Source: Octopus vulgaris
Taxonomy: Eukaryota
Length of the DNA stretch: 64,000 nt
Reading direction: 5' to 3'
Assembly: GCA_951406725.2 (NCBI GenBank)
Contig: OX597822.1
Coordinates: forward strand, 15,810,001-15,874,000
Part shown: piece after piece, positions 2,158 to 56,739 of the stretch
Numbering within the stretch: the first letter of the stretch is position 1
Layout: the number at the start of each line of letters is the position of its first letter
Made by a program: the position numbers and the translations under genes
Notes under the pieces: generated by a model
Told to the model about the DNA's origin: nothing
The model's input: only the letters and a program-made list of their open reading frames with translations
The model's database searches: none

Positions 2158-2161
<4 letters not shown>

Positions 2162-2601
2162 AAATAAGCAACAAGGATAAATTCGGTAATTTGGTACGAT
2201 CGTTTCACGCTACATCATTTTATTAAATGTTGTAAGTGTTACAACAGTTTTAAAATGCTGAGCACTCATCAGCCATTAATAGAAGTTTTCCATTACTACA
2301 TAATTTTCATATCAATTGATAACATTATAGAGAAGGTAGATATATAGACAAAGAAGTAGATTTAAATTTTAAGAACATTTAATGTAGTGGACTGAATATT
2401 CTTCAGTCAGATGATAAACTCCACTACCTTAAATGTTCTTAAAATTTAAATCCACATCTTTGTCTATATATCTATATATCTAATGGCTGATGTGTGCTCA
2501 GCATTTTAAAACTGTTGTAAAACTTACAACATTTAATTAAGTGAATTAGCGTGAAAGGATTGTACCAAATTACCGAAATTATTCTTGATGCTTATTTTGA
2601 T
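2158..2601. repeat. Imperfect fold-back palindrome between (TA)n tracts; probable inverted PLE terminal repeat
   Basis: Arm 2158-2391 is the reverse complement of arm 2420-2601, with an extra ~55 bp in the left arm. (TA)n tracts lie at 2107-2158 and 2700-2780. Confidence 0.9.
2187..2278 (-). ncRNA. Type I hammerhead ribozyme with extended stem II
   Basis: Minus strand reads TAATGG CTGATGA GTGCT...AGCGT GAA ACGATCGT A CCAAATTA. Core boxes are intact, stem III is palindromic, and the predicted GUA cleavage falls between 2195 and 2194. Confidence 0.7.
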
Positions 2602-2717
2602 TATAATCACCCCATGGATTTATATGGATATCACCATACAAAATTCTGGTGCATCTAACTTAAGTACCATATTCATTTCAATCTAAATTTTGCTGAACTT
2701 ATATATATGAATATATA

Positions 2718-2781
<64 letters not shown>

Positions 2782-2924
2782 TACGACAGGTCGCTTTCAG
2801 TTTCCGTCTACCAAATCCACTTACAATGCATTGGTTGACCCGAGGCTATAGCAGAAGACACCTGCCCAAGATGTCACGCAGTGGGACTGAACCCGGAACC
2901 ATGTGGTGGGTTAGCAAGATACTT
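2782..2924 (-). mobile_element. tRNA-derived SINE family A, body (interrupted; continues at 4863-4879 and 6170-6192)
   Basis: Reverse complement of the 5' half of the intact copy at 28568-28987. Confidence 0.9.
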
Positions 2925-4862
2925 TTATTCATTAAATTTGCCATGAAGGCAGTACATAGATGTAGCTTTGCGGGCTGGACGTAGACATTGATGGTATGAA
3001 TGATGGTGATGGAACGAAGGTGGTGATGGGAGAAGACGAAAGCGCTCGCCGACTTCTGCTTCTCTAAGACAATGTTCTTTTTTCAAGACACAATGAGGCA
3101 ATAAACCTCTTACTTAACACGATGTTCAGAGATCTATTTTTTTTCTTCTTTTCTTTTTTAAAACACACAGAAAGTCGCTCGTTCAGGTCATCCGGCGGAC
3201 CAGTGCTTTTGCTCCACTGTGGCAATCACCCGATGTTAGGCCGGACCATGCAGTCATAATTTGGTAGGAGTCCTCCGGAAAGGAATTCATGATCCTGGAC
3301 AGATCATTTTCCCCTATGACCTCCGCAGCCACCTGCGAAGGCCACTCAGGGTCCTCCGTGCAGGACAGAATTCCCACCCATCGGCCTCTCCTTTTCATTT
3401 TCTTAACTTCATTTTCCATGATTCCTCCTTTGTACAAGAGGATCACATATTCATCATCCGGCGGAACACCCGCCTGAGGAGGCTCGGGAAACGCCGTCTG
3501 CGTGTTACAATCCGCCGGCGGCGTCCCGTTTCTCTTTCTTCTTCTTTTTCCTTTTTTTCCCTGGGCCGCGGAAGGGTGAGGTTCCGTTGTTGCACACAAT
3601 GGGTCCTCTTTTTCTCCCGCAGCTTCAGGGTCTTTCGGTGGGTCACCATTGTTGCCCATCTTTCTTTTCTTTTTTGAGGAAGTAGCAGTTTCCTCGTTCT
3701 GTTTCTCTCCTTCCATTGGGGGGGGGGGCAGGGAGAGGTTCCAACATTAACTGCTCCAGGATCCTACTTTGGTCCCTGGGGCAGTTCTTCTTAATGTGGC
3801 CGGTCTCCAGGCACATGTGACATTTGGGGGGGGGGGCCTCCCTCAAGCATCACCGGATATTTGACTCGGCCATCCTCAAGAAATCTGGGAAAACCAGACT
3901 TTTGGCTGATTGGATCCATAGGGTCAAAACAGCTTTCGAACACTCCCAATCAGCCGCAGGCAACACTTTTACATTTAGCAGCTTGGCACTGCTGCCACCC
4001 AGACCCCGGCGGATAGAGTCCTCTATCCACTCGGGCTCAACTCAGGGTGGTAGGCCACAGATCCAAGCTTTTAATAACCTTTTCCCCATGTAATTTGGCA
4101 AGAATAGTATTTCTTTGCCATCAAGGGGCTGGCTTGCAAAGATAAATTTAACGGCTGGCATGTAGTCCGCTAGCTCGTTTAAAATAGTGTCCTTCGGGAA
4201 GACGGCTATGGTGTCGAGCGACTTCGAATAAGTCCTCAACACCACGGTCCTCCTTTCTAGGTCCTTTAGCCAATTTTGGGGAGGTGTCAGCTCCCACACG
4301 AGCAATTCTTTTGTCATTAACACAAAATTTAAGATAGTTCAAAATACAAAAATAGAACCCAAAAAGGGAGAAGGGAAAACAGAACAGAAGAGAAGAAATA
4401 AAATAATAAACAGTTCAAAAAAGTTTTTTTTTTTTAAAAAAAAGAAAGACAGCTTGAAGAAGAGTGTTCAAAATCCGACAAAAGAATCAATTTTTTTTTT
4501 GGGGGGGGGCGAAAAGGTACTCCTGCCCAAACGTCCAAAACAGTCCTTGGTTATACTTGGTGCTTCTTGGTAAATCCAACACAAAGGCAATTAATTTTTG
4601 AGGCGGGGCTACGCCTCCTCAAAAATACAATTCTCACTGCAAAGTGAGTCTTTACGTTCGACCACAGGCAGCAAAAATGTCCGGAGCAAAGTGGAGTCTA
4701 TTACTCTCCAAAAAATAATAAATACAGAGCAATAAACTTCACTAAGCCCCCCCCCCCCAATTCAACAAATGCCTACCTGTAGTCGAGTCTCAAGAATTCA
4801 ATAATTCACGCCTAAAGGCGTGACATCCGGGGCAGCCAAAAGACACGTCCGAACACGTCGAA
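2925..4862 (-). mobile_element. ORF1-only non-LTR retroelement (L1/Tx1-like, no RT)
   Basis: Flanked by a 16-bp TSD: ggttagcaagatactt 2909-2924 and ggttagcgagctacct 4863-4878. The 3' end is AATGAATAAAA on the minus strand. It holds one disrupted ORF with a CCHC knuckle. Confidence 0.75.
3183..4317 (-). pseudogene. Disrupted gag-like/ORF1 protein with CX2CX4HX4C zinc knuckle and basic low-complexity C-terminal region
   Basis: Pieced together from ORFs 4042-4323, 3643-3846 (KCHMCLETGHIKKNCP) and 3183-3716. It has a stop and frameshifts, one at a G homopolymer. Confidence 0.7.
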
Positions 4863-4879
4863 GGTTAGCGAGCTACCTA

Positions 4880-6169
4880 CGAGGGACGTTCAATAAGTAA
4901 TCCCCCTGACCCACTTGCAGTTGTTTGATCTAGCTGAAATTTTGCATGTGCAATTATTTATATCTCTATAGAGTAAGTGGCAAATTACAGCTCTGACCTA
5001 ATTGTGGTTTCTGATTTACAGGTGTTTGAACTGAGTCAAGTGTGAAATGGAGCCTGTTGAGTGTCTAGCAGTGATCCGGTTTTTGTATTTGAAAGGACGC
5101 ACACCACGGGAGACTTTTGCTGAAATGAAAGTAACTTATGGTGATGATGCCCCATCATAGGACCTTGTAAAATGCTGGCATCGTGAATTCAAACATGGTC
5201 GGAACTCTGTGGAAACAGCTCCCAGATCTGGTCGCCTCCTTTCTGCCATTGATGAGACATCTGTCCGTCAAGTTGAGGCTGCCATTTTGGAAGATCGACG
5301 CATAACAATTCGCCAAATAGCCCATGAGGTCAAGATTAGTACCGGGTCTGTGGAAACTATCATTCATGACCATTTGCATATGCAAAAGGTGTCTGCCAGA
5401 TGGACTCCCAGGCTGCTCACACCTTTCCAGAAGCAAGAACGCGTCGAGTGCTCGAGGATGAATTTGGAGATGTGCCAAGAAGATGAGTCAAAAGTTTTCA
5501 AAAGACTGATTACACAGGATGAAAGCTGATGCCATCACTATGATCCAGAGACCAAAGTCCAGTCAATGCAGTGGAAGCACCGTGACTTACCTCCTCCAAA
5601 GAAGTCAAGGGTGCAGCCCTTCGCTGGCAAGGTCATGCTCACAGTCTTCTGGGACCAGGACGGAGTAGTGATGACAGATTTCCTGGCAAAGGGTACCACA
5701 ATTGCAGGAACCTATTATGCTTCACTTTGAGGAAATTAAGAGAAGTTATCAAAATCAAGAGGCGGGGCAAGATCAGCAAAGGCATCCTCCTCCTACAGGA
5801 CAACGCTCCGGTCCACAATTCGCGGGTCGCCAGATCAGAAGCACAGGCGCGCGGCTATGAACTCCTCCCCCATCCCCCTACTCTCCTGACATTGCACCCT
5901 CTGATTTTCACCTCTACCCATCCATGAAGTTGTTTTTGAAAGGAAAGCATTTCCCAGATGATGCAGCCTTGATTTCTGAACTCACGTCGAGGTTGGAGGA
6001 CCAAGCTGAGGTATTCTACAAAACTGTCTCCAGAGCTGCATCAAACGATGGGAGAAATACGTAACTCTGGGTGGTTCCTATGTAGAAAAAGACTAATAAC
6101 TGTGCTAAGTTTCGTTGCTCTACTGCTATGGGAAGTGGGTCAGGGGCATTACTTATTGAACGGCCCTCG
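4880..6169 (+). mobile_element. Full-length mariner DNA transposon (1290 bp)
   Basis: 37-bp TIRs at 4880-4916 and 6133-6169 with 2 mismatches. TA duplication at 4878-79 and 6170-71. Internal transposase present. Confidence 0.97.
5047..6096 (+). pseudogene. Mariner (DD34D-type) transposase with stops and frameshifts
   Basis: MEPVECLAVIRFL..., PRSGR, WTPRLL (WVPxxL motif), ITQDES*, QDNAPVH, YSPDIAPSDF, ending GGSYVEKD*. Confidence 0.95.
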
Positions 6170-6190
6170 TACCACACAGCCACTCCTGCG

Positions 6191-6192
<2 letters not shown>
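6170..6192 (-). mobile_element. 5' head of the interrupted family A SINE
   Basis: taccacacagccactcctgcgcc is the exact reverse complement of 28568-28590. Confidence 0.9.
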
Positions 6193-6272
<80 letters not shown>

Positions 6273-7228
6273 CACCTTCAGAATATTTGCAGGGCGTGAA
6301 GTATAAAACCGAGTAACAGGTATGGAGCCCAAACATTTATACAATGAAGTTACAATTTAAAAATGCAATTAGGAGAAACCAAGAGTATAAAGGTGAGTAT
6401 AAAGGTGAGTTTAAAGTCCAGCGACAAGAGTTGATGCAAAGATTTGGGAAAGAGGAAAACAGAAGCAGTAACTGAACGAGACGCTAGATTAAGATGCTAA
6501 TGATATACTTTTTTTATTAACTATGAACTAAACCTTCTCTGTGGTTTTGAAAACTTTGTGAGGTTACGATAATATTAATGATGTTTGATTAGTGTAGCAC
6601 CCGTTAAATATTCAGTTCCTGACTCTTGAAGAGAAGTAGAATGTTATTTTCTTCTCTTACTTGTTTGTGTTTGTCGTTTCTTTTTTCTGTATTTCTGTGC
6701 AAATAATTACAGGTTCTCTACGTGATATATTTTAGCGTCGTTCCCAAAATATTCCTTTTTTTAATTATTGCTCCCTAAAGTAAATATTAGTTCATAACTA
6801 TTTTTACCTATTTTTTCACCCATAATTCAATTAGTTTCACTTCTAAAGCTACTTTTTGTAAAAGACATTATCTTAATATTTCAAAATACAGTTGTCGATT
6901 GATTTTATGCATCTTTTACAAATCAAAAGATCCCCAGCATATAATTACTTATTTTGATAATTACAAAATTATTGTATTTACGGATATTTACGTTAATTAT
7001 ACAGTTATTAATAGCTACTTATGGGAGAATGTCGAATCATTCATTGTCATTTAAATGAATGCTTCAGGTCTTAACTGATTTAGAGGAACTCAGCTGTCAA
7101 AAACAATTGTAATTATCTAACGCACACACCCACACATACATTCTATATATTCACAAAGTGTATATAAGCGCTTTGTAAGTGCGAAACCGATTATCCCTCA
7201 CTGACTGGGCATAACAAACACCCTTCTT

Positions 7229-7287
<59 letters not shown>

Positions 7288-7313
7288 CATACATACATAC
7301 ATATATATATATA

Positions 7314-7349
<36 letters not shown>

Positions 7350-7357
<8 letters not shown>

Positions 7358-8125
7358 TCATATAGGGTGGCAAAAATTTTGTAGAATTTTGCCACCAGCG
7401 CTAGTAGGAAAAAATTAAATAGTCATAAACCATTTTTACGTTCAACATCACAATCATACGGCCATAATATTCTAGAAATAACAGCCATACGCATACATTA
7501 ATACGTAAACCAGGAGAAAATTGAAAACTTTACCTGTAATTTCTTAGAGATGCACCGTTTCATATATATATATAAAGCCTACGTTCAACATCACAATCAA
7601 GGAACGGCCATAATAGGCCATTCACCCACTAGAAATAACAGCCAAAAGCTTTAACCGCAAAATAACATTAATACCGTAAACCAGGAGCATCGTCGGTGCA
7701 TCGTCTAAGAATTCTACAAAATTTTTTTGCCACCCTATATTGATTAATTATGAATTTTCTGGTTAGCTCCGTAACGGAATCGGTGGTTCATTTGCTGCCG
7801 ATAAATTTGGCGCGAGTGCGACGATTTGAAAATTTTAGGTCAGATACTGCCGAGGCAGCAAGAGGAATGCCTCGTGAAAAATATCTGTCCCGATTTGGCT
7901 ATTTCTTACTGATGAGTCTAAGGGCCTATGGTGGATTGGCTTGATTTAATTTAATCAGGTTAGTTTACCATTAAACGGTAGATGAAACGGTGCATCGTCT
8001 AAGAAATTACAGGGTAAAAGTTTTTCAATTTTCTCCTGGTTTACGGTATTAATGTTATTTTGCGGTTAAAGCTTTTGGCTGTTATTTCTAGTGGGTGAAT
8101 GGCCTATTATGGCCGTTCCTTGATT

Positions 8126-8130
<5 letters not shown>
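7350..8130. repeat. Complex inverted-repeat cassette between (TA)n tracts, carrying a hammerhead
   Basis: 7590-7687 is a perfect 98-bp reverse complement of 8033-8130. 7438-7563 is a deletion-riddled inverted copy of 7982-8130. 7350-7388 is inverted with 7710-7751. Confidence 0.9.
7901..8007 (+). ncRNA. Type I hammerhead ribozyme with long stem II extension
   Basis: ATTTCTTA CTGATGA GTCTA...TAGAT GAA ACGGTGCATCGT C TAAGAAAT. Stem I is a perfect 8 bp, the core is intact, stem III is near-palindromic, and the predicted GUC cleavage is after 7999. Confidence 0.9.
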
Positions 8131-8159
<29 letters not shown>

Positions 8160-8274
8160 ACATTTCATGACAGTCAAAGAAGAAAGCAGGAAAAAGCAAC
8201 AAATAAAGGTCGCTGTTTAACTCATAATGGAGTCTTTCGGAGTTAGTAAACATTTAACTACATATATGAGCGTG

Positions 8275-8437
8275 TGCTTCTTCCGCACAGTTTCCTTCCA
8301 CAAAATTCAGTCCGAAGGTATTGGTGGGACCCTTGTCTTGGCTACAGTAGGCACTTGATGAAAATGCCACCCAGTGGGACTGAACCTGCGACCAAGTGGT
8401 TACAAAGCGAAGTTCTTAATCTCACAGCCGCGTCTGA
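8275..8437 (-). mobile_element. Diverged family A-like SINE fragment
   Basis: cagtgggactgaacc B-box region and ...cacagcc head resemble the reverse complement of 28568-28720. Confidence 0.65.
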
Positions 8438-10023
8438 ATCTATTTGAAATGTATTTCTATATCCTACATAAATATTTCACTACTACATTGTAGTTGGTAG
8501 AGGCAGTTTGTATTTCGTTAAATTTATACGCTATGTGTTCAAATTTCTCACAGTGCAGCTCTGCATTTTATTCTTACAGGGTCGTATCATTTGAAGATGC
8601 CTCTCAAGCAACATCGCTAGCTTTGTGTGTATCTTACATATACAGTTACTACCGCTGTAATCTGAAGTTCTTTTTCTTTTCAGGTGTTATCATTCACTTG
8701 TTTACAATATATTTTCATCACACCCGAAGTATATTTTTACCTGAAATTATTAAATAAAGGAAGCAGCAAAATATAAGACGCAATTTGTAGAATAATCGTA
8801 GATATCAATATTTTTTCTTATCTATATTTATACATTTATCGAAAAGTTTCAAATGTAAAGACGTTTAGAAATATATTTTCCTAATATAATTATTTTCCTG
8901 TAACTATACACATAATGATATAACAACTCAAAGTGTGTGTGTGTGTGTGTGTGTATGTGTGCATGCGTGTGAGCGTGCGTGTGTGTGTGTGCATGCGTGT
9001 GAGTGTGCGTGTGTGTGTTTGTGTATGTGCGTGTGTGGCCTTGTGCCAATGTTATGAATTCTTATTTAAGAAAAATACCAAAACTGCATTGCAATTTACC
9101 TTGACAACATTCCAAATATTCTGAATCATATCTGCATATTTCACAGATACCTATTTGGAAATGTTCGCGTTTGCTAATAGTTTGCCTGTTTGTTTTATAA
9201 TATATCAAAAATAAATCTATTTTCAGTTAATATTTTTAAAAAGTAGGATCAGCTGTGTTCCTACGTTAAATAACGAATATAGATATAATTTCTTGTTGAA
9301 TGATATAAGTAATCTTGGATACTCTTCGGTATTATTATCTGCAGTTTTATTTTAATGAAGACCAATCAGATTACCTTTACGAGTAAACAAACGCATACGT
9401 ACCAAACGACATGCACATGCGTACTAATGAACGCAGACAAGGTTAAAAACTACCGTAATACAGCACAAGCTTCTTCTTATAATAAACAAAAATTCTGTCC
9501 TCAGCTCTATAGAAAAAACTGTTACCATTTTGCGCGTGCAAAACAACAAGAAATAGCATAATTTATACAGAAGTTTTACCTAGTGTGTGTATGTCTGCCA
9601 TTATTTTATGGCATTCTTTTCTTTGAAGCAGCAAAGATGCTAACTCAATTATATGGTCGATAATATGGGATCATATGATTGTTCGTTAATTTCCGTAAAA
9701 ATGTTCTCATTTCTTTGTGCTTTGATCTTCAAAGCACAAATTGAAGCTAAAATTGTGCTTTGATCTTCAAAGTACAATTGAAGCTGAAATTGAAAGGGAG
9801 GAGAAAGTGAAAAGGTGACATTTGTTTTGAAGTGGGAGCAGAGAGTGAAATAGTTGAAGAAGTGAAAGGTCTATATGAAATGGACGTGTGTGTGTGTGTG
9901 CATGTGCCTGAGAGTGAGAGCGAGCGAGTGAGTGACCGAGTGAGATATCTCACTTCTATTTTCTTTCCTCCACCTCACTATTTATTTTGTATCCTAACTA
10001 TAACTTAACCATCATCTCAAACC

Positions 10024-10075
10024 GTCTCCAATGAATGGATATGATAAATAAATATCCTAGAAACGGCTGTAGGAC
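10024..10075 (+). ncRNA. Degenerate hammerhead-like motif (probable PLE terminal repeat relic)
   Basis: GTCT CCAATGA ATGGATAT...ATATCCTA GAA ACGGCTGT A GGAC. Stems I, II and III are present but the first core box is CCAATGA. A microsatellite follows ~60 bp downstream. Confidence 0.45.
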
Positions 10076-10137: not shown

Positions 10138-10197
<60 letters not shown>

Positions 10198-18882: not shown

Positions 18883-19465
18883 TATTTCTTTATTACCCAC
18901 AAGGGGCTAAACATAGAGGGGACAAACAAGTTGATTAAGTCGATCACATCGACCCCAGTGATTAACTGGTACTTATTTAATCGACCCCAGAAGGATGAAA
19001 CGCAAAGTCGACCTCGGCGGAATCTGAACTCAGAACGTAGCGGCAGACAAAATACCTATTTCTTTATTACCCACAAGGGGCTAAACACAGAGGGGAAAAA
19101 CAAGGACAGACAAACGGATTAAGTCGATTATATCGACCCAGTGCGTAACTGGTACTTATTTAATCGACCCCGAAAGGATGAAAGGCAAAGTCGACCTCGG
19201 TGGAATTTGAACTCAGAACGTAACAGCAGGTGAAATACCTATTTCTTTATTACCCACAAGGAGCTAAACACAGAGGGGACAAACAAGGACAGACATAGGT
19301 ATTAAGTCGATTACATCGACCCCAGTGCGTAACTGGTACTTAATTTATCGACCCCGAAAGGATGAAAGGCAAAGTCGACCTCGGCGGAATTTGAACTCAG
19401 AACGTAACAACAGGTGAAATACCGCTAAGCATTTCACCCGGCGTGCTAACGTTTCTGCCAGCTCG
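18883..19465 (-). mobile_element. Head-to-tail trimer of SINE family B
   Basis: Units are 18883-19056, 19057-19239 and 19240-19465; only the last keeps the tRNA-like head. Confidence 0.92.
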
Positions 19466-21713: not shown

Positions 21714-22370
21714 AATCGGAAGGATAACTCCGCGGACAAAGAAATAAAACCCACAATATGGTAGAAGCCATCGCCACTCATAATAAAAAGGAATAGTGGT
21801 AGAATGTACCACTGAAGATCTCAATAAAATGTAAGCACAACAGACCTGATATAATGATTTGGGATAGAGAAGAGAAATTGTTCACAGTTGTGGAAATTAG
21901 CTGCTCGTAACATAAAGCTGAAGATCAACGAAAAAGAAAACACCTATGTTGAACTATTGAGAAATCTACAGTTACTCTATGCAGATTACAAGTTCACCTT
22001 TATACCTGTAATTATTGGGGCCCGCCCGGGGATATGTAACACACTGCCTAAATAACAATCTTGAGAAATTAGGCTTCTCAAAACCAGGAAAGGAGAAAGT
22101 TAATTCGAAGTTTACAGATCCTATCCATCACTAGAACTGTAAAAATCTGTAAAACTTTCCAGAAGTTTACCATGAGCATGCCTAGATATGTAACTATATG
22201 CGTAAGAGTGCATCCATAAAAGTTACAAGTTTGCACATACATGCATACATACATATACATACATACATACATACATACATACATACATACATACATACAT
22301 ACATACATACATACAAAAATACCCTGCTATTGATGTTGAAATTACAATGAAAGAATCTTGGATCTAGGTT
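21714..22370 (+). mobile_element. 5'-truncated R4/Dong-like non-LTR element (REL domain and 3' region) in (TACA)n
   Basis: Translates with frameshifts to KCKHNRPDIMIWDREEK..VVEISC..EKENTYVELLRNLQLLY.DYKFTFIPVIIGA.GYV. TACA repeats lie upstream (21695-21713) and at 22236-22315. Confidence 0.8.
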
Positions 22371-44563: not shown

Positions 44564-44629
<66 letters not shown>

Positions 44630-45503
44630 GAAATGAGGGACTCAGAAATGCGGATGGCTTTGTATTTACAGATATTTATTTGTATATTTCATGTTTTTAT
44701 ACATCATATAACTAAGATCATGTATTAGCGCTTTCTCCCATTCTAGTGGGGTTTTCAAATCGAACTAAGTTCCTGTGTGAAAAGATTTGACCAGTTTATA
44801 GTGGTATTCAGTTTATAGTGGTATTCAGTTTGTAGTGGTGGGGAGGAATATAAGACAGTATGAGGAGAAAGCGAGAGAGAGAGAGCATATGTGTGTGTGT
44901 GTGCGTGCGTGTGTGCGTGCGTGTGTGTGTGCTTTTGTATTTGGAATGAGTGCTAAAGAAAGAGAGGGGAAGGGAGAGGGAAGAAGAAAAAAAGAATTAT
45001 ATTATTTGCTCTGCTGGGGGTGGTCTAAGATCTTGGGGAAAAAGAATTTCAGTTTTCACCATTTCATAGTGTTATTGAGTGTGTGGTGGCGGGGAGGTAG
45101 ACCATAAATTATATTTCCTTTTATCATTGTGAGAGAGTGTGTGTATATCTAATGAGGGGTGGTCAAATGATTTTTGGGGTTTAGAGAAGAAGAATTCTTT
45201 TATGATTATTTTGTGGAGGTGTGCGTGGGGGGGGGTCTGTGATTTTGAAGAAGGGAAGAAAGGAGAAAAGGAAAAAAAGGGGAAGGAGCAATAATTGTGT
45301 TGATATTTATACCACTATATATATATACATATATACATATGTATAAAATATTAGAAAGAACCACCTTTTATCAATTCAAAATGAATAATTAAATTACACC
45401 ATCTAGAAAATAACATATCATAGAAAAGGTTAAAATTAAAATAACAATTAAAAAGTAAAGATTAAGTAAATTACAAAAATAAAATAACGTACAAATAGGT
45501 AAA

Positions 45504-45567
<64 letters not shown>

Positions 45568-45887
45568 TATATGCTAAATGCTCCACTATATTAAATTGTA
45601 AATTGAAAGATTTGTTCTTCAATGTATCATGAGTAAAATTTCATAAAATCCATACTTGAAAAAGAGACTCTCTTGTTTTGAAGTTACAAATGACAGAATA
45701 CAAACTGACAACTACTGATCTTCAATTGATTTAGTCTAATATCTCACTGATCGACAGCTAAATAAATATTAAATTTTATCATACAGGAGCAACTGGTTCC
45801 ACAAATTAAAGTGAAATGGTTTCATTCAAATATTAGGATTACCTTTGTTCAATGTTGTATTTTCAAAAACCAAAACATATGTGTAGA

Positions 45888-45928
<41 letters not shown>

Positions 45929-45939
45929 CTGTGTGTGTG

Positions 45940-45985
<46 letters not shown>

Positions 45986-45988
<3 letters not shown>

Positions 45989-48698
45989 ACTTAGCAAATT
46001 TGGTCCTTCATCTGGTACAGCTTATTATAGAGATATTTTCAACCATTCAATTTGGGGGAGAACTTAGTCATGAAATATTTTTCCATATTCCTCCTGAAAG
46101 AGGTGTAAATTCTTTGGACATTTGTAAATTTAAGAAGGGAAAGATCTTAAATTTTCCTTCTCCACATGTAGCTATGTAGCTAGGTATGTACTCAGTGGTA
46201 TCTTGCGCAGTTCTTCCTGTCGATAATGTTGTCGGTGAATCCTGGCTCGTTGGCATAAAGAATTTCCAGTTTCACCTATGTAATCTTCCTTGCACGTGGG
46301 GCAGGTTATGCAGTATATTACGTTCTGCGACTTGCAGTTCATATCTGCATTTACTTTAAATACATGACCACTTTTAAATTTCATTTCTTTGTCTCCCTCT
46401 ATGTATTTATAGGTGGGGTTGCTGCAGATCCCACATCTACCATCTCCGCAATCTTTTGCAAAGAATTCAGTTTTAGTTTCTGATGAGAATTTCGCTCTTG
46501 TTAGATGTTTCTTTAGGTTTTTGTCTTGCCGTCTACTGTTTTTTATGCAATATTTGTTTAGTATGTTTTCCATTTTGGGATTTGTAGGACTATTGGTAGG
46601 TTTGAATGTATGATTTAGAACACGTTGGTAACTCCAGTGTTGTGCGTTTTTATGAAAGGGATAATGTTTTCTTGTTTTGGGTGTCCTGAGTTGTGCGATG
46701 TCTAGTTGCTCTTGTGATTCCATTTTCTATTAGTTTAAGAGGGTATTTTTGCTCTAGTAGGAAGTTTTCAGTTCATCTAGTCTTATTAGTCGTGTTTGTG
46801 AGTCAGTTACTATGTTACATATTCGTCTTGCCATACTATATGGGATGTTTCTTTTTATGTGGGATGGGTGGCAGGAGTGGAAATTTAAATATTGGTGTGT
46901 GTCGGTGTTTTTGTAGTGGATGTCTGTTGTGATGATGTCTAAGAAGGGAAGTTCGTTGTAGCTGGTATCTATTGTGAAGTTGACAGATGGGTGCAGCGTG
47001 TTGAGGATGTTGTGGAATGTTCGCAGGTCTTCTTCTGATCTGTTCCAAAAGATGAAGCAGTCATCGAGGTAGCGTTTCCACTTTTTCTTGATGTCTTCTC
47101 TGAAGTCGTGTTCGAAGACTTTCCCTATTTCATCGTATAGTTTGTTCTCCAGGAAACCCATCACCAGTTTGACATATGAAGGTACGAATTTTGTACCCAT
47201 AGCCGTGCCCTTTATCTGTCGGTATATCTTGTTGTTGAATGAGAATATATTTTCTTCGAGTATTAATTGGGTGGCTTGGGTGATAAAGTCTATCTTGAAA
47301 CGTTCGTCTATGAGTTCCCTGTATTTTTTTACCGATTGTTTTATTGCTTCCAGACCTAGGTTGTGTGGTATGTTCTTGTATAGATTTGTGACATCGAAGC
47401 TTGCAAGTATGGTGTTTTTCGGGACTGTATTTGGAATGTGTGTGAGGAAGCGTATGTCATCCCTTATGTAGCTTGGTATCTGTGGGCATAAAGGTTTGAG
47501 GAGTACTTCTATTAAATGGCTTAGTTGTTGTGTTGGTGCCTGGGGTCCTGCCACTATTGGTCTCATTGTGTGGTCTGCAGGCCTTTGTATTCTTATATAG
47601 TGGTTCTTCTGTTCCCTTATGGCTCTCTATATTTCAGAGCTTTTATGAATTTTAGGTAATCCATAAAAGTTCTATCTTTGGTTCTTGAATTGCATAGATA
47701 GTCTTTCTCCTTATCTGTAAAGGAGTCCTGGTATTCATTGATTAAAGTTCTTTTTTTTTATTGTTGCTTTCTCCGTTGGTGTTGGTTCCTCTTTATAGTA
47801 TGTCTGGTTGTTAAGCAATTCCAGTATCTTTTCTTTGTAGTAACCTGTATCCATGATAACTATTGCTCCACCTTTGTCAGCTTCTTTTATAATGATCGAC
47901 TTGTCATTTTTTAGTTTTTGTAAGGCTTGTTTTTCTCCTCTGTGAAGGTTCTGTTTGCATTTGTGTGTGTTGAGAGGAAATTTAGAGATTGTCTCTATGT
48001 ATGCGTCAAGGTGTTTGTCACTTCCCTTGTAAGGGGTGAAATGGGATTTTTTTCTTATGATTGAGTTATTTTCTGTTTCTTTATTTTCAAAGAATTCCAT
48101 AAGGCGGAGGTGGCGGCTGAAATTATCTATATCAGTTTTTAGTTCTATGAGGTTTGGAGTGGGTGTAGGTGTAAATTTGAGGCCTTTTAGTAGTAGGTTC
48201 ATTTCATTTTCGTTAAGTTCTCTTTTAGATAGGTTTATTATTTTGGTGTATTTTTGGTGTATTGGGTCTGGAGTATGGTTGAAGTATCCTTTCCATAAAA
48301 AAGGGGTTGTGTTGTTGCGTCTCCAAATTCCATTTTCAGTTCTTAGGTTTTCTTGTAGTAGTAGGGGCGGTCTGTGTGGTCTGTATGTATTGTTTTATCT
48401 TTGGTAGTTGTTTTCTTCCCATCTTCTGTGTTTGTTGAGCCAATTTCTATTACTGGGGTTCAGGTTTCTTTGTGGGTAGGTGGATGGTTCATGTTTTGTG
48501 TTTGTATTGTATTGATAGTGGGAGTTGTTTTTTATCCATCTTGTAAATTTGTAGGGTTGCATGGGGTTGGTGTTTGTGTGGTTTGGATTTCCTCGATGTT
48601 TGTTGTAGGTTATTTCTATCCACTTGTTTATTGTTCCATATGTGTGTCCTTTTAGGATGCCCAGTGTTATATGTTGGTGGTTGTTCATATTATATTTG

Positions 48699-48700: not shown

Positions 48701-48781
<81 letters not shown>

Positions 48782-48836
48782 CAAACATACATACATACAT
48801 ATAGATAGTTAGATCATATATAATATATATATATAT

Positions 48837-48883
<47 letters not shown>

Positions 48884-49149
48884 TACAGCGAGAGAGACAG
48901 ACACACAGAAAGACAGAAACAGAGACAGACAGATAGTGAGATATTTCCGAGTATGGGATATTCCTTCATAAGAGACAAATAGGGGCTGGGCAAGATGACG
49001 GGAATAAAAGAGGAAGGGAATAAAAGAATAAGGCGATGGAAAAAAGAAGAAAAAGGAAGCTATGTCTTGTCTTGCAATGCGGCTAGAAACAGTGTCCTAC
49101 AGAAATACTGTAACACATAATAAAGTGTTATATTCATCGTCCGGTTTCT

Positions 49150-49190
<41 letters not shown>

Positions 49191-50099
49191 CTGCGCGCGT
49201 GTGAGTGTGTGAATGTATGTGTATATACATACTCGAGCACACACATTTATGTATGTACTGACGTAGGTATGTGTGTGAGCGTGTAAAATACATGCTACGA
49301 CTTGGTGAAGGCTAAGCGAAACACTTTAGAATAGTTAAGATGAACTCTTACTGACGACCGTAGTTGTTGATTTACAGTTAACTGTACACTTCAGCTTGTA
49401 AGATGAAATTGCTTTGATACACAGTTCACATTACCTAACCTCATGGAACTCGTCAAAACTGATAAACCGAGATGGCTTCGAGGGGTATGGAACGCGTTGT
49501 AAGATCTCACATTAACCCCAGAGTCGGTTATTTATATAATGATGGTTAAACATTTATAACTTTGAAATACATAAGAAACAAGTATTATCATCTGTGATAA
49601 TTTGATCTGAAACGTAATTGATATAAGGTGAAATAATACACCGGATAGGAATTAATCATTGTGATAGGACCTGGATATTTTATTGTCATGAGATGTTATG
49701 CAACACAAAGTGAACTTCTATATAGCCCAAGAGAAAGGGATTATATATTCTAACAACAGAGTAATTTTATTAATTTACTTGAAACATAGCAGATGTCGAA
49801 TAGATGGATGTATACTGACCCAATAAGGTTCGATTAGAGAGTGAAAACTCGCCGTTTATGAAGAAAATTTTGTAGAAAATGACAAGAGGCTAAATCCAGT
49901 ACCATAATGAAAAATTATGAAGGTGAAATACTAATCTATTTATCATATATTTACCATATATATATATATCTATTATGTATCACTGCGTGCAATGATAGTA
50001 TTCAATATAGATATTGCAATGAAGATAGGAAATTCAAATTGGTACATCGGATATGATTTGTTCGATCGCAAAAATTACGGAAGCACAACGTGTCATGTG

Positions 50100-50168
<69 letters not shown>

Positions 50169-50204
50169 ATTTATATATATAGATATATATATATAATTTA
50201 TAGA

Positions 50205-50330
50205 AAAACAAAAGATGAAGACAGGTGTATGAACAACAAGCAGGTGTAATTGTTTGACGTTTGCGAAAAACCAAAGTCTTTTACGTTTCGAGGAATAAGA
50301 GAAAATAAACAGAGAGAGAGAAGGAAAAAA
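50205..50330 (-). repeat. Dispersed repeat related to 1975-2105 (probable PLE terminal-repeat relic) next to (TA)n
   Basis: acaaaaga.gaagac.g..g..t..aacaacaa.ca...ttttacgtttcgag is shared between the two loci. Confidence 0.6.
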
Positions 50331-51806
50331 AACTTGTAGATTTCAGCGGTCCAGCATGGCGAATGGTTACGAAAAAGTTAGAAGAGGTTGAAAGAAAGGG
50401 ATATAATAAAGTGTTGGCGTTGGCGTGGGTGGGGGTGTGATGGAGTGCTATCAATGAAAAGAGGTGCTGGGTAGGAGTGAATAGAGGAAGTAGGTGTCAG
50501 ATGAAGAGAGGAGGGGAGTCATGAAATTATATATATATCAAACTGGCTTAACTGATGATGGCTGCGGAAATCGCCAAGACCTACGTCAGCATGGGATCTA
50601 AACTCGGAACAGGATTTCCAGCAACAATAGCCCAATCCCTTCACCAAAACATCCGAGTTGAAATCCCACCCCATCCACTACAACTATCTACATTATATAC
50701 TTATTAATCTATTTCTCCTTAATATAACATAATCACCCCCTTTAACAAATGCCAAATCTTTCAATTATGAACCTAATTTGGAATAGGGAAGGCATTGCTG
50801 CTTAACCTCAAGGTTAGAACCCCCTGACAACTAACTTTATTTTTCTGTACCTTCTATACCACGGGTGAGCTTGTTTACACAAGTTTCAATCTGGACTTAA
50901 TCTTTTCAACCAGCATATTGGTCTAACTTATAGTAGACCCTACTAATCCTACCCACTTATAAACAACACTGTAGAACATAACTTAAATCTTATAACTTAA
51001 TATTAACCGTTCCCCTCTCTTGACGGTATAGGTCTGCATTTGGGCACCGTAGTTGATGGCTTTAACATGTGACATTTCATTTAGGCTTGTTATGTATGAA
51101 TGGAAGTGAAATTTGGTGGTAGACCCAGTTTGGCTACACCCACGTAAGGGTTAATATTACAATACCTTTAGCAATAGGAACAATCTAATTTTAATTTTGA
51201 TATACTAATTTTAAATTTAATTTGATATATTCGGTAAGATTTAGTAAAATGTCGTAGGGCCTGGAGTGTGTACTGTTTTTTTTTTGTACTTTGGTTCTCT
51301 TGTGAGGCAGAATGCACCCAGTAACGTGTAGACATTTACTTGTTCGTCTAGTATTACCACCTCTTGGAAGTATGCTGGTTATTTAAGATGACAGATTCAG
51401 CATTATATTTCGTGGGTAATTTCCACTAGTATTCAACCCACTATCAGTAGTCTCCCCTTAACTGTAAAAAAGTTGATTGCCGTATTGGTTGCGAGTACTC
51501 ATCTTATTTTTTATTGTTTATTTTTATTTTTTGTTATGTTGAGATGGTGTAGAAGGTTATAAGCAGCTTCGTGCCACTTATGACGTAGCCTTTTCCCCCA
51601 ACACCTTTTTATTTACTGGTACATTTTTCTTCTTTATTTTCGTCTACCCCTGTAACTGTCTTAACTTTCCTTTGGTTTAAATTCAATTGACCAATTGCAG
51701 AGATGGCAGGGCTTTGGTCACTTCCATTTAGTGTTTGGTAGGTAGAATATTTCTGTTAGTACACCATTATAAAAATTTTACGGATTTGGTTTTGGATAAA
51801 TATTAA

Positions 51807-51892
<86 letters not shown>

Positions 51893-51895
51893 TAT

Positions 51896-51934
<39 letters not shown>

Positions 51935-51950
51935 TAAATATTAACTATTT

Positions 51951-51982
<32 letters not shown>

Positions 51983-51985
<3 letters not shown>

Positions 51986-52346
51986 GAATGGTTGTATACT
52001 GTCAATCTAACAAGAACGTGACAGTAGGGGGTACACCACCGCTGTATAGCCCTAGGAAGCATCGAACGCCTCCTGATGGCTTTGATACATTTTTCCCTGT
52101 GTCCTTATATACATATACAAAGGGGAGACAAACACCCCCGGATGCCGAAGCTGCATCTAGGGACACGTGTCCTTATATACATATACGAAGTGGGTGTTTG
52201 TCTCCCCTTCGTATATGTATATAAGGACACAGGGAAAAATGTGTCAAAGCCATCAGGAGGCGTTCGATGCTCCCTAGGGCTATACAGCGGTGGTGTACCC
52301 CCTACTGTCACGTTCTTGTTAGATTGACAGTATACAACCATTCTAT
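51983..52346. repeat. Near-perfect fold-back: 155-bp arms, 54-bp spacer
   Basis: 51983-52137 versus 52192-52346, 3 mismatches, flanked by (TA)n. Confidence 0.97.
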
Positions 52347-52395
52347 CGCCCCACCACCGTACATGTCTCTACGAGAGATTTAGAAATTCAATATT

Positions 52396-52457
<62 letters not shown>

Positions 52458-52506
52458 GAGTATTGCAGTTCGCTTGAAGCATTGTGTATTGTTTGGGAAA
52501 TATAAT

Positions 52507-52775
52507 GTGTCTCGAATAGCACAACAATGTAGAGTGGACTATAATAACTGTTATAATTTAATTATTCCTCGTCTGATATAATATTTTGGAATATAAAAAA
52601 ATCCTTCTTCAGATATCGCTAGGAATCAAAACCGATTATAGCAGTGACTCGATCAATTCCTAGCCATATCTGAAGAAGGAATTTTTTATATTCTGAAATA
52701 TTACATCAAACGATGAATAATTAAATTCTAACAGTTATTATAGTCCACTCTACATTGTTGTGCTATCCAAGACAC
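52507..52775. repeat. Fold-back with ~120-bp arms carrying decayed minimal hammerhead motifs
   Basis: Arms are 52507-52626 and 52656-52775. CTGAAGA-AGGAAT..ATTC(C/T)-GAAATATT motifs lie at 52575-52617 (-) and 52665-52707 (+). Confidence 0.9.
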
Positions 52776-52896
52776 GTAATACACACACATATATGTGTGC
52801 GTGTCTGTGTGTATGTTCATGTATGTATGTTTATGTATGTATGTATGTATGTATATATGTATGTATGCATGTATGTATGTATACACACACATACGC

Positions 52897-53055
52897 ACGA
52901 CGGACATTTTTCAGCTTCCGTCTATCAAATCCACTCGCAAGGATTTGATCGGACCATGGCTATAGGAGAAGACACTTGTAGAATGTGCCGCGCAGTGGGT
53001 CTGATTCCCGAACTCTGTGGTTGGGATGTGCGCTTCTTACCACGCAGCCACTCTG
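52897..53055 (-). mobile_element. Diverged family A SINE (5' half)
   Basis: ttccgtctatcaaatccactc..ggctataggagaagacactt..cgcagtggg..ttaccacgcagccact. Confidence 0.8.
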
Positions 53056-53553
53056 GGTCCACTAAATAAATTACTGGACTCAATACGAATGTAGAGTATT
53101 TTTTAATACAGTGTATCTTGAAGGCTCCGATTTCCAGTACTCAGAATTGCTCGTTCCCGAATATCAGATGCTAAACCGAACCTGGTTTTCTTTTGAATAT
53201 CCACTGTCGGGAGGAAACGCTTATCCGTATGTTCTGACGTCTAAAATCCTTTGTGGATGACACGTTTGAAAACGAGTGCATCAACCTCATGCTGTTAATT
53301 ATATTTGTGGTACTCGTCTCAATATTACATTTGATGTGAAATCAAAACGTGAGCTTCATGCAACTAAAATTTTCACTGGGGGTCAGTCTAATCTATTCAC
53401 TGTAGACATCCTATTTAGTTCTATATTTTGTCCCTGATTTTATTTTGTTCTTGGATCCGTCTCTCTCCATCACTTCCCCTCTTTCCCTCTCTCTCTCTTT
53501 CTCTCTCTCTCTCTCTATGTTTATAAATATATATATATAATGTGTGTGTGCGT

Positions 53554-53612
<59 letters not shown>

Positions 53613-54856
53613 AATCGAATTATGGATGATTATACTTCAAAGTTTTGTTAGATGATTCTTTTTATATATTGCCTCAACGTGCATTCTTGGTGATAAAGTA
53701 TTTGGAAGAAGCTGAATGAATGAATAAAAGCGGATGGGAAGAAGCTTAGGAAAGAAATCGGTAAATGAGGAGATCGAGAAAAGTGGCACGGAAGAGAGGA
53801 GGAAGCATTGGTCGTGTGCGAAACCAGCTCAGTAATAAATGGTGTTGAGAATAATGTGACTCATACAAAAAACTTCGCTGATGGTTGATCTCAATTATAT
53901 GAATGAGAAGATGAAGAAGAGGAAAGAGTGAAATGGAAGGAAGTATTTTCATTAACGTTAGTATCAAGTACCAAATAAGTATGATGTACTCATAACAAAA
54001 GGAGACCTGATGTCGTGCAAGAAGCGAATCAATCCTCGAAAATATGTGTTGACATCAATGAATAGGCGAACTCACAGACAAATAGGAAAGATGAGAGAAT
54101 GCGTAGGTGCAGACAATGCAGACAATTTTCGCTCCTAAGAAATTGTTAATATATATTTAGATTCCATCGGGAAGTTAGAGACTTTATATCGCAACTGATG
54201 GTCGCACATTACAATTTCTGTAATTCGTGCGCAGAATTCATGTAACTGGGAGACCACCTGTAAGTGAGCAAGTGTAATACAACAAATAGATATTTATCAC
54301 TATTAATGATCTCTCAGCTTGTATCCAATCTAAAAAATAGCTACAAAATATTGATTATAATCTGATAACAGTTTCTTTCCATCGCAGGAACACTATTTAA
54401 TAAGCTTGTTACACTACTGTCATCTCAGAGTGTTCAGTGAAAATTGGTTGCTAGGTGTGGTATAAGGTCGTCAAGAGAAATAGTATGCATACATACACAT
54501 ATATAAACTTCGGTGCGAATGATTTTGTTATATGGAGCCGCGTTTCACAATCCTGTAAATGATAATGATAATGGTATTTATATAAGCTCCAAGCTTATAG
54601 CGACCACCGTGCAATGATCAAGGAAAATAGCCTAATGGGTCATATAAGCCCTCCACAGAAAGCAGTAGGCTTTCGCTTCAGCGTAGTGCTCGAACCCACA
54701 TCCCTTTCTTAACGCAACTGTGTTAGCATTACAACAATACAACAACGAGTTAGCCTCCTTGCTTCTGTCAAATTTAAGAACTACATTAATTCGTAGTTGC
54801 TTTTTCTAAACAAACTTCTATGTGCTTTCGGAGCGAATATATATATATATATATTA

Positions 54857-54896
<40 letters not shown>

Positions 54897-55917
54897 GACA
54901 GACGGGCAGATTCATATACATACATACGTATATACGCATACACGTAGATGTAGACATATAAAAGTATATGTATAAATATATTTGCATATAAATTTACGCA
55001 CGCACACACACACACACACACAAATATATGCGCAAATATTTTTAGTTAACATAGAATGTTTGAATTTTAGCGGATGTCGTAATATACATTGTGTCCCTTT
55101 ACGTCTCGAAAATAGAAAGCAATAAAACATGTCCAATTTGAGATGAGTATTGGGGCTTGCCATTATGAACTAAAAGCCACGGAAGGTGGTGATCCAGCGT
55201 GAACGGAGCTGAATGACGTCAGCCTTTACGGAATTAAAAGGAAAATCCTTGAATATTCCAAGTGGAATTGGTTTTAAATATTCGATTATATGATTATGTG
55301 ACAATAAATATTAAAAAATATTATCTACCAAAACACTAAACTTCGATATAGTGAAATCGTGGAGTTACTAATAACTTCTGTGTGTTTGTGATATAAAGGA
55401 TTTACTGAAAGTCATTTAGTAACAGGTATATCAAATATTTAAGTAGGAAAAAATACCACGTAGAAGTTAACTATTCGTGAAAGGAATATCAGTATGAAGT
55501 GGGGGGGGGTGTTATAATTCTTATATGCGAGTTAAGGTGAAATGGAAGCTGTATAAAAGAAATATTTCAGAATCATTGAATGGTGAAAACTAAAGTTGGC
55601 AAAGAATGGAATTAAACGGAAATACGTGTGATAGATAACTTAAGCACGCAAAGACGGAAACACACAATCATATGCAGTGTTACGGGCTTATATATTTGCA
55701 TAAGTTCATATACGTATGCATATCTATTATATAAGTAAACGCATATATATGCATATATATGCATATTTATAAACAGACATACACGCGGAGAGTAATTTAT
55801 TTATATACTATAGAAATTAATATACAAATGCTTTTGTCATATCGGCCATATATATCTATCGACATTCATGTAATATATATATATATATGTGTGTGCGCGT
55901 GTGTTTGTGTGCATGTG

Positions 55918-55951
<34 letters not shown>

Positions 55952-56457
55952 AATATATACAAACATTCATATATATATATATATATACGTATACATGTGT
56001 ATATATGCATATTCATATACATATATACACATACATACGCACACACAGGTATATATATATACATTTATATGTGTGTATACATTTACATTAACACCGATAC
56101 ACACACATGTGTATGAATATGCATACACAAATATACACGCACATAATGAATTAACCCAGCCATTATGATGGTGGCCAGGTTTCGTGGCAATATCTTCTGA
56201 AAGATGTAATAGTAAATTCTAACTGTTTGGGAATACGCCAATTCCGCATCTCTGATCTTTAATTGAAACAGATAACTCAATGGCACCATTGACAGCAGCG
56301 GACTAATACTTCATGCAACGACTTCATTCGTAATGATAGTTGTTGAAAGTCAATTAAAATCATCTCTGTAAATCCCTTTGATCTAAAGTGGACGTTGAAG
56401 TAGTTTTCATTCAATATGAACTATTTCTATAATTTTTGCTAAATATCAATCTGATAT

Positions 56458-56527
<70 letters not shown>

Positions 56528-56614
56528 GTAGGTCCCAGGTTGAGTCGGGGTTAACCACAGTAAATAAGGTACTCAATACATAGCAGAGTAAATTAATTTA
56601 TTTTATAGAAGGAG

Positions 56615-56661
56615 CTTCTACAGGACTAGAACTGTTTCATTCGAAAGAAATCATCAGGAAG
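56615..56661 (-). ncRNA. Compact type I hammerhead motif
   Basis: CTTC CTGATGA TTTCTTTCGAAT GAA ACAG ttctagtc CTGT A GAAG. 4-bp stems I and III, weak stem II, GUA site. Confidence 0.65.
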
Positions 56662-56669
56662 ATGATGAT

Positions 56670-56714
56670 TTCCTGATGATTTCTTTTGAATGAAACAGTT
56701 CTAGTCCTGTAGAA
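56670..56714 (+). ncRNA. Compact type I hammerhead motif (inverted partner)
   Basis: TTC CTGATGA TTTCTTTTGAAT GAA ACAG ttctagtc CTGT A GAA. Confidence 0.6.
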
Positions 56715-56739
56715 GCTCCTTCTATAAAATAAATAAATA

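What the first reader, a model, noticed from the sequence alone, without database searches (positions are those of the whole stretch)
2158..56734. Recurrent architecture: fold-back hammerhead-ribozyme cassettes lodged in or beside (TA)n microsatellites
Seen: four loci of unrelated primary sequence (2158-2601, 7350-8130, 52507-52775, 56596-56734) share one design. Each is short, non-coding, in or next to a (TA)n tract, and carries a type I hammerhead motif with an inverted (sometimes partial) copy. In every case the minus-strand copy is on the left and the plus-strand copy on the right. Known: PLE terminal repeats carry hammerheads, PLE insertions often have an inverted terminal repeat at the 5' end, and non-autonomous HHR retrozymes exist in other eukaryotes. 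Inference: these are either extremely truncated PLE insertions or families of non-coding, microsatellite-targeted, self-cleaving hairpin retroelements mobilised by PLE RT/GIY-YIG. A read-through transcript could fold as a ribozyme or as a long dsRNA that masks it.
Basis: partly seen in the sequence, partly recalled or inferred. Interest (0 to 1): 0.85.

Follow-up and report, generated by a model that had tools for sequence, protein, structure and literature searches.

The report
Penelope footprints on ribozyme RNA circles
The mirror-image ribozyme cassettes in TA repeats are not one new element: three are stumps of protein-coding Penelope-like jumping genes and one (plus a fifth nearby) is a non-coding ribozyme repeat with the same insertion anatomy, which is likely the footprint of Penelope enzymes copying what would be small RNA circles.

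Summary
The four fold-backs are real, unrelated in sequence and sit at (TA)n, but only 4 of 8 arms pass my hammerhead (HHR) descriptor. Each locus belongs to a dispersed family. Loci 1, 3 and 4 are 3' ends of ORF-bearing Penelope-like elements (PLEs); 1 and 4 are Hydra-clade-like. Locus 2 is a 484-nt tandem non-LTR retrozyme whose HHR shows compensatory changes; a missed fifth fold-back (51983-52400) is a second, 362-nt one. Head-to-head arms, one arm carrying a longer 'tail', and the (TA)n target are published PLE anatomy. Centres vary, so the hairpin is rebuilt at each insertion; a self-propagating hairpin element is not supported. Two points go beyond the papers I read. (1) The retrozymes carry the whole PLE footprint (19 of 21 two-arm loci have one short and one long end; 5' ends scatter round the unit), structural evidence that PLE enzymes copy them, probably from a circle. 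(2) Locus-4 arms stop sharply at the HHR's outer edge, 29 nt after a conserved TATAAAT, probably the transcription start. The scan's AI notes report similar patterns in other genomes. Cleavage, start site and circles are untested.

The parts
2106..2159 (.). (AT)27 tract at the short 3' end of locus 1
2158..2391 (-). Locus 1 left arm: 3' end of a Hydra-like PLE (family F1), short 3' end; HHR core 2266-2272, 58-nt helix II region, palindromic helix III CGATCG, predicted cut after 2195
2392..2699 (+). Locus 1 right arm: same family, internal deletion, HHR damaged (CTGATGT at 2487-2493), plus a ~100-nt tail (2600-2699) absent from the left arm
2700..2783 (.). (TA)n tract at the long 3' end of locus 1
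7350..7687 (-). Locus 2 minus-strand pieces of the 484-nt retrozyme unit (F2): unit 341>85 with deletions (long 3' end, only the 3' half of the HHR) and unit 246>139
7707..8130 (+). Locus 2 plus arm: unit 297>484 then 1>236, reading across the unit junction; intact type I HHR (core 7909-7915, 8-bp helix I, 68-nt helix II region with a 19-bp hairpin, predicted cut after 7999); short 3' end into (AT)n at 8129
51983..52400 (.).
52401..52453 (.). (TA)26 tract between the fifth locus and locus 3
52455..52627 (-). Locus 3 left arm: 3' end of a GIY-YIG PLE (F3) with ~40-nt tail; minimal HHR core 52606-52612, G12A
52628..52786 (+). Locus 3 right arm: minimal HHR core 52670-52676, helix I disrupted, short 3' end
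56528..56661 (-). Locus 4 left arm: HHR (core 56651-56657, predicted cut after 56619) plus 68-nt tail (56528-56595) of a Hydra-like PLE (F4)
56662..56734 (+). Locus 4 junction insert and right arm: HHR core 56673-56679, predicted cut after 56711, short 3' end into (AT)n

Best explanation
All five loci have the anatomy of Penelope-like element (PLE) insertions into (TA)n and were likely made by PLE reverse transcriptase/endonuclease, which is inferred to build the mirror image anew at each insertion. Inferred mechanism: the enzyme nicks both strands of a TA tract, starts two cDNAs at two fixed sites on the RNA (the short end and the tail end), and the two cDNA 3' ends are joined head to head with 0-4 nt of microhomology or a short templated insert. 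The template differs by family. F1 and F3: long PLE transcripts, randomly 5'-truncated. F4: mostly a PLE transcript that likely starts at the outer edge of HHR helix I, 29 nt after a TATA box, so cDNAs primed in the 5' UTR would run off after 70-140 nt and give thousands of ~200-bp hairpins (strong-stop-like). F2 and F5: non-coding retrozyme monomers, likely cut out by the HHR, circularised and copied rolling-circle fashion into concatemer arms. Shown: anatomy, ORF links, end statistics, HHR covariation. Inferred: the enzyme, the start site, cleavage and the circle.
For: ORF links: F4 tail runs into a 712-aa ORF with RWR, DKT, CxCx5C, no CCHH, the Hydra features of PMC8557442 section 11; F1 3' UTR follows an RT 46% identical to it; F3 follows a Pfam GIY-YIG. 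Tail asymmetry: 41 of 41 short F4 hairpins, 19 of 21 two-arm F2 loci, 15 of 15 F1 inverted hits (13 distinct loci), 18 of 21 F5 inverted arms at the short end. Two RT start sites, cutting of both strands and AT-rich targets were shown in vitro for an anole PLE (PMC11167929). Both arms share the subfamily variant in 30 of 35 F4 hairpins. F4 edge: of 59 arms reaching +2, 28 stop at 0..+2, none at -1..-7, 6 in the next 30 nt; TATA-to-edge spacing 29 nt in 19 of 21 parsed long copies despite different spacer sequence; nearer palindromes such as GTTAAC and CTAG just upstream are not used. F2: 53 arm 5' ends not distinguishable from uniform round the unit (KS p 0.14), arms up to 3022 nt, within-locus divergence 0.4% against 1.8% median between loci, 15 locus-private variants shared by both arms in 6 loci; 7 pairs with two-sided change, 92.9% of cells paired, 0 of 500 shuffles as high.
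Against: No autonomous partner was found for F2 or F5: no similarity of the F2 unit to the PLE loci tested and no ORF joined to an arm, so the enzyme is inferred from the footprint alone. For 9 of 33 F2 loci another locus is as close as the locus's own units, so young copies do not discriminate circle from linear multimer. No F2 arm in the positional sample ends at the cut site (0 of 53; one copy, L101, does). The F4 edge coincides with a 4-nt palindrome (AGCT) and an AG that could be a splice acceptor. Predicted helix I pairing is about 0 for the window's F4 arm and 0.05-0.09 for the F2 arm in its 234-nt context. F1 and F3 show no such edge. The F4 sample cannot show arms that end 3' of +22.
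Confidence: 0.78

Rival explanations
1. The hairpins are themselves mobile, non-coding HHR elements: read-through RNA of a hairpin locus is copied whole and the centre is inherited.
For: F4 hairpins are very numerous (5650 exact 32-mer hits genome-wide; 41 short fold-backs in the loci of the first 100 hits) and share nearly the same centre and the same two ends.
Against: Only 6 of 41 junctions are perfect and the rest differ; each stem-II subfamily has its own hairpins with both arms alike (30 of 35); some arms carry 5-30 nt of true upstream PLE sequence; the short hairpins lack the TATA box; centres are scattered in F1, F2, F3, F5.
Confidence: 0.07
2. The F4 centre is fixed by something other than a transcription start: annealing of two longer cDNAs at the AGCT palindrome followed by central deletions, a splice acceptor at helix I as in D. 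virilis Penelope, or RT stalling at the folded ribozyme.
For: 6 perfect AGCT-overlap junctions and many with 1-2 nt overlaps could derive from one by deletion. In D. virilis the intron ends at the 5' end of helix I (PMC4209133) and the promoter is TATA-less (PMC2377424). Self-priming on an antisense template was proposed for such palindromes (PMC3846280).
Against: No constant exon-1 sequence precedes the short arms, and many keep the AG; other palindromes within 6-30 nt are unused; in L194 the arms start at +1 and +3 with about 170 nt of foreign sequence between them.
Confidence: 0.3
3. F2 and F5 are PLE-mobilised but from linear multimeric transcripts of genomic arrays, or arrays grow locally by unequal crossover; the HHR need not make a circle.
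For: Local amplification is the model of the 2026 preprint; HHR cleavage was dispensable for PLE insertion in vitro; arms read through the cut site; other genomes have similar tandem units without HHR (AI notes, unchecked).
Against: Locus-private variants in all units on both inverted arms need a single-monomer stage; HHR structure is kept by compensatory change across subfamilies 10-20% apart; arrays end at the same two fixed sites.
Confidence: 0.25
4. The palindromes are assembly or long-read fold-back artefacts.
For: Palindromes in AT-rich repeats are a known artefact class (own knowledge); no independent read across a centre was seen.
Against: Arms differ by 2-10%; the one-tail rule holds in 41 of 41; junctions carry micro-inserts; contigs of independent runs show both fixed F2 ends entering (TA)n.
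Confidence: 0.02

Closest known systems
Insertion anatomy of endonuclease-bearing Penelope-like elements (Arkhipova 2013 PMC3846280, passages; Craig 2021 PMC8557442, passages and section 11)
   Same: Inverted 5'-truncated copy head to head, tail on one end only, HHR in the terminal repeat, (TA)n target, palindromes at the junction, TATA-like motif in a pLTR.
   Different: Here most F4 insertions are only the two termini, with a sharp 5' edge at the HHR; tails are 40-105 nt against the 30-40 nt described.
Hydra-clade PLEs (PMC8557442 section 11)
   Same: F4 and F1 ORFs: C-terminal EN, RWR for RWK, DKT, CxCx5C linker, no CCHH, CxxC and CxH, (TA)n target, HHR.
   Different: F4 has a ~2.5-3 kb simple-repeat-rich 3' UTR (elements described as <3 kb); no tree was built.
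PAc of Anolis (Frangieh 2024 PMC11167929; main text parts 1-2 read)
   Same: Two internal RT start sites delimit the tail; both target strands cut and extended; cDNA length set by the template's 5' end.
   Different: In vitro, Poseidon clade; it does not describe head-to-head joining or a 5'-end pile-up in genomes in the parts read.
Metazoan non-LTR retrozymes (Cervera and de la Pena 2020 PMC7229834, passages and Discussion; Li, Clavereau, Pollet 2026 bioRxiv 10.64898/2026.07.22.740005, parts 1 and 3 of 5 plus passages; its supplements are closed)
   Same: Non-coding tandem units, one type I HHR each, low GC, highly paired predicted circle, co-occurring with PLEs.
   Different: F2 is 484 nt with a 68-nt helix II; F5 has a U4C core; both show head-to-head concatemers with PLE tail asymmetry. 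'Inverted' occurs 0 times in PMC7229834 and once (a reference-list or unrelated place not shown) in the preprint; both only propose PLE mobilisation.
Opposite-strand minimal HHR pairs of Schistosoma (Cervera and de la Pena 2014 PMC4209133, Results read)
   Same: Dual HHRs 100-700 bp apart on opposite strands, ascribed to truncated PLEs; bulged base before helix II and no real helix III, as in F3.
   Different: Noted there in one sentence, without end statistics or mechanism.

Membership tests
EN+ Penelope-like element (F1, F3, F4) | Terminal repeat continuous with an RT plus C-terminal GIY-YIG ORF in longer copies | tested here: met
   Pfam itself did not recognise the F4 or F1 ORF, the Atlas placed F4 with GIY-YIG/RVT clusters at 0.96-0.99; for F3 only EN and an RT N-terminal fragment were seen
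EN+ Penelope-like element (F1, F3, F4) | Inverted 5'-truncated copy, tail on one end | tested here: met
EN+ Penelope-like element (F1, F3, F4) | Partial tandem forming a pseudo-LTR with HHR upstream of the ORF | tested here: met
   F4 only: L287, L289, L306; not seen for F1 or F3
EN+ Penelope-like element (F1, F3, F4) | Target-site duplication | tested here: inconclusive
   ends lie in (TA)n, where a duplication cannot be read
Hydra clade (F1, F4) | RWK-type motif, DKT, CxCX5C linker, no CCHH, CxxC and CxH, (TA)n target | tested here: met
   read off the L287 ORF; RWR in place of RWK; F1 by 46% identity and EN remnants
Hydra clade (F1, F4) | RT phylogeny with named Hydra elements | not tested
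   no reference sequences on hand
Non-LTR retrozyme (F2, F5) | Non-coding tandem unit with one type I HHR per unit, dispersed | tested here: met
   F5 core is U4C in 20 of 21 motifs seen
Non-LTR retrozyme (F2, F5) | HHR structure conserved | tested here: met
   F2: (18 hand-picked distinct sequences); F5 too uniform to test
Non-LTR retrozyme (F2, F5) | Self-cleavage | not testable with these tools
   only 1 of 9 Xenopus dimers cleaved in the preprint, so it cannot be assumed
Non-LTR retrozyme (F2, F5) | Expressed as circular RNA | tested here: inconclusive
   F2 unit and its head-to-tail joint are in contigs of 4 of 4 runs laid, three only guessed to be RNA; the joint also exists in DNA
Self-propagating hairpin (MITE-like) element | Same centre and junction inherited among copies | tested here: not met

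The most novel reading that the evidence does not exclude
This genome records two unmapped steps of the Penelope cycle. Ribozyme RNA circles (F2, F5) are copied rolling-circle fashion by a dimeric PLE enzyme from two fixed start sites into head-to-head concatemers. A Hydra-type PLE whose mRNA begins exactly at its hammerhead sheds thousands of 'strong-stop' twin cDNAs as ~200-bp hairpins, a genome-wide source of perfect dsRNA against the element's own 5' UTR.
Probability: 0.45. Interest if true: 0.7.

Novelty: new variant of a known kind. Interest (0 to 1): 0.5.

Why it matters
Which enzyme moves animal retrozymes, whether their template is a circle, and how PLEs make head-to-head copies are stated as open in PMC7229834, PMC8557442, PMC11167929 and the 2026 preprint. 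Here young retrozyme families carry the full PLE footprint with the two priming sites mapped to the base (F2 unit 236 and 341; F5 309 and 361), and an intact-ORF PLE family is on hand, so an in vitro test is straightforward. The contrast between a hard 5' edge (F4) and no edge (F2) is what linear against circular templates predict. The general architecture, however, is known PLE biology.

Tried and rejected
Rfam on the whole window: only low-complexity miRNA-like noise; on the F5 unit: nothing. Search for an autonomous partner of F2: blastn against 103 PLE-related stretches, tblastn of four PLE proteins against 80 overlapping F2 stretches (three flank hits, none joined to an arm), and a search with an older 84% subfamily gave none. 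Sequencing runs: no RNA holder listed on record; contigs cannot show ends, strand or level. Cleavage-site ends as in vivo evidence: 1-2 of 30 tail-anchored F4 loci (L040, L025) and 1 F2 copy (L101) are too few. A 5' hot spot in F3 (-30 to -50) seen in the similarity-ranked sample was weak in the positional sample and was dropped. The first F4 search used the palindrome as query and is biased towards hairpins; counts rest. Paper searches for the retrozyme head-to-head point and for this animal group found no paper describing it; subscription journals, Repbase/Dfam and bioRxiv supplements were not searchable.
Full report
Setting. The window is C9:15810001-15874000 of a 2.8-Gb animal assembly in 227 contigs, 34.6% GC, with 40 tracts of (TA)8 or more. 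Its SINE-like repeats remind me of cephalopod genomes; that is recall, not a tool result.

Observation. All four inverted repeats are in the sequence, share no primary sequence and have the minus copy on the left. A strict HHR descriptor found only the two arms of locus 4; a relaxed one allowing a long helix II found 4 motifs (2272-, 7909+, 56657-, 56673+) against 0.21 per shuffle, maximum 2 in 100. The other 4 of 8 arms are damaged or partial. Rfam saw only locus 2, below threshold. Each locus is longer than stated, because one arm bears an unpaired tail.

Family 1 (locus 1). 359 exact 25-mer hits genome-wide. In the first 30 by position, 3' ends fall mostly at two sites, +118 and +217 from the HHR core; 15 hits (13 distinct loci) have an adjacent inverted arm, always one short and one long end; 5' ends scatter from +61 to -1211. 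A long copy (L145) runs through a 1.2-kb 3' UTR into a broken RT/EN frame, 46% identical over 130 aa to the family-4 ORF.

Family 3 (locus 3). 139 exact 24-mer hits; 8 of 30 have an inverted arm, two of them doubtful; 5' ends from -15 to the limit of my reference. Long copies end in a GIY-YIG domain with two cysteines between GIY and YIG. The HHR is of the minimal type of PMC4209133 (bulged A, 5-6-bp helix II, no real helix III) and is decayed in many copies.

Family 4 (locus 4). 5650 exact 32-mer hits. Full-length copies read TATAAAT - 22-nt spacer - AGCTTCC - HHR - tail - ATG (cut +45, short end +68, tail end +137, ATG +184; TATA present in 3 of 3 such junctions) and encode a 712-aa ORF with the Hydra-clade motifs; many copies have open frames. 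Of the first 100 hits by position, 25 are long (22 by pattern, 3 added by eye). Of 59 arms that reach +2, 28 stop at 0..+2, none at -1..-7 and 6 within the next 30 nt. The TATA-to-A distance is 29 nt in 19 of 21 parsed long copies although the spacer differs between subfamilies. Among 41 short fold-backs every one has exactly one tailed arm, 6 are perfect palindromes, the longer arm ends at +1 in 19, and both arms share the subfamily variant in 30 of 35. I infer that +1 is the RNA 5' end and that cDNAs primed at the two start sites in the 5' UTR run off there (about 60% for this sub-claim). The AGCT palindrome, a splice acceptor and RT stalling remain rivals; the unused neighbouring palindromes, the lack of a constant exon 1 and L194, whose arms start at +1 and +3 around foreign filler, weigh against the first two. 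The sample needed an intact 32-mer, so arms ending 3' of +22, including at the cut site, are invisible in it.

Family 2 (locus 2). A 484-nt tandem unit with one HHR; 513 exact 27-mer hits and older subfamilies down to about 80% identity. In 32 insertions from the positional list, 21 have two arms, all head to head; 19 of the 21 have one end near 236 and one near 341, the other two are irregular; arms reach 3022 nt; the 53 5' ends do not depart from uniform round the unit (KS p 0.14) and none is at the cut site. Units differ by 0.4% within a locus, also across inverted arms, against a 1.8% median between loci; 15 locus-private variants are on both arms in 6 of 33 loci; but for 9 of 33 another locus is as close. 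In 18 hand-picked distinct HHRs the core is invariant apart from N7 and H17, and helices I-III show 7 pairs with two-sided change (92.9% cells paired, 0 of 500 shuffles; sliding controls 27-42%; relatedness is not controlled by the shuffle). The circle folds at -141.8 kcal/mol, z -4.5 on 60 shuffles. No ORF is joined to any arm. The unit, its head-to-tail joint and, in some runs, both TA-joined ends are in contigs of 4 of 4 runs laid, three of them only guessed to be RNA; this does not show expression or a circle.

Family 5 (missed). The fold-back at 51983-52400 belongs to a 362-nt tandem unit unrelated to F2, with a type I HHR whose core is CCGAUGA (U4C) in 20 of 21 motifs; 21 of 30 loci (ranked by similarity to the tailed arm) have an inverted arm, 18 of them ending at 303-310. 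U4C lowers activity in vitro but sustains a viroid in vivo (PMC3088659, passage).

Mechanism. The two fixed ends match the two internal RT start sites and two-strand cutting shown for the anole element (PMC11167929). The ends overlap the TA tract by a few A/T letters. Joining of the two cDNA 3' ends explains head-to-head polarity and the one-tail rule; this step is my inference. A read-through transcript of a hairpin would fold as long dsRNA, and inverted Penelope copies yield siRNAs in Drosophila (PMC3681739, passages), so the dsRNA is best seen as a by-product. Predicted helix I pairing is weak even in single arms, in line with low activity of PLE HHRs, so cleavage cannot be assumed for the window copies.

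Comparison and novelty. Inverted truncated copies, tails, (TA)n bias and opposite-strand HHR pairs are in print (PMC8557442, PMC3846280, PMC4209133). Retrozymes as PLE passengers are proposed from co-occurrence and pLTR homology (PMC7229834; bioRxiv 10.64898/2026.07.22.740005). I found no paper giving PLE-type end anatomy for retrozymes or a promoter-linked 5' edge; the library is partial and the preprint's supplements are closed. AI notes of this scan describe 5' ends piling at the HHR edge and PLE-type tandem units in other genomes; I wrote the start-site idea down before reading them and did not check their DNA.

Verdict. Real, largely known architecture, with two testable additions: new variant of a known kind, interest 0.5.

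Noticed in passing
window 44625-48650 (-): A decayed canonical PLE (RVT_1 E 1e-9, weak GIY-YIG) with a long 3' UTR ending in (TA)n; my descriptor found no HHR in it; only weakly related to the F4 ORF.
   Followed up: partly
window 18933-19423: 2.7 head-to-tail copies of a 183-nt SINE-like unit; no CUGANGA core.
   Followed up: no
L395:851-957 (+) and L141:8132-8247 (-): Two further type I HHR motifs with 60-70-nt helix II regions and palindromic helix III, unrelated to F1 or F2: long-helix-II hammerheads seem common in this genome.
   Followed up: no
L141 and L144: F2 retrozyme copies lie a few kb from F4 PLE pieces in the same TA-rich stretches; shared target or nesting.
   Followed up: no
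L194:420-1000: About 170 nt of foreign sequence between the two arms of an F4 insertion.
   Followed up: partly
L087:1534 (F2 unit position 34): A>G in contigs of runs X1 and X7 but not X2 or the DNA-sized run X16: allele or A-to-I editing; cannot be told apart.
   Followed up: no
window 21800-21990 (+): Broken frame that recalls a restriction-like endonuclease of a non-LTR element (context seen; likeness recalled, untested).
   Followed up: no
L145:1640-2600 (-): Asparagine-rich (AAT)n insert between RT and EN of the F1 element, like the N-rich inserts of Adineta Penelopes.
   Followed up: no
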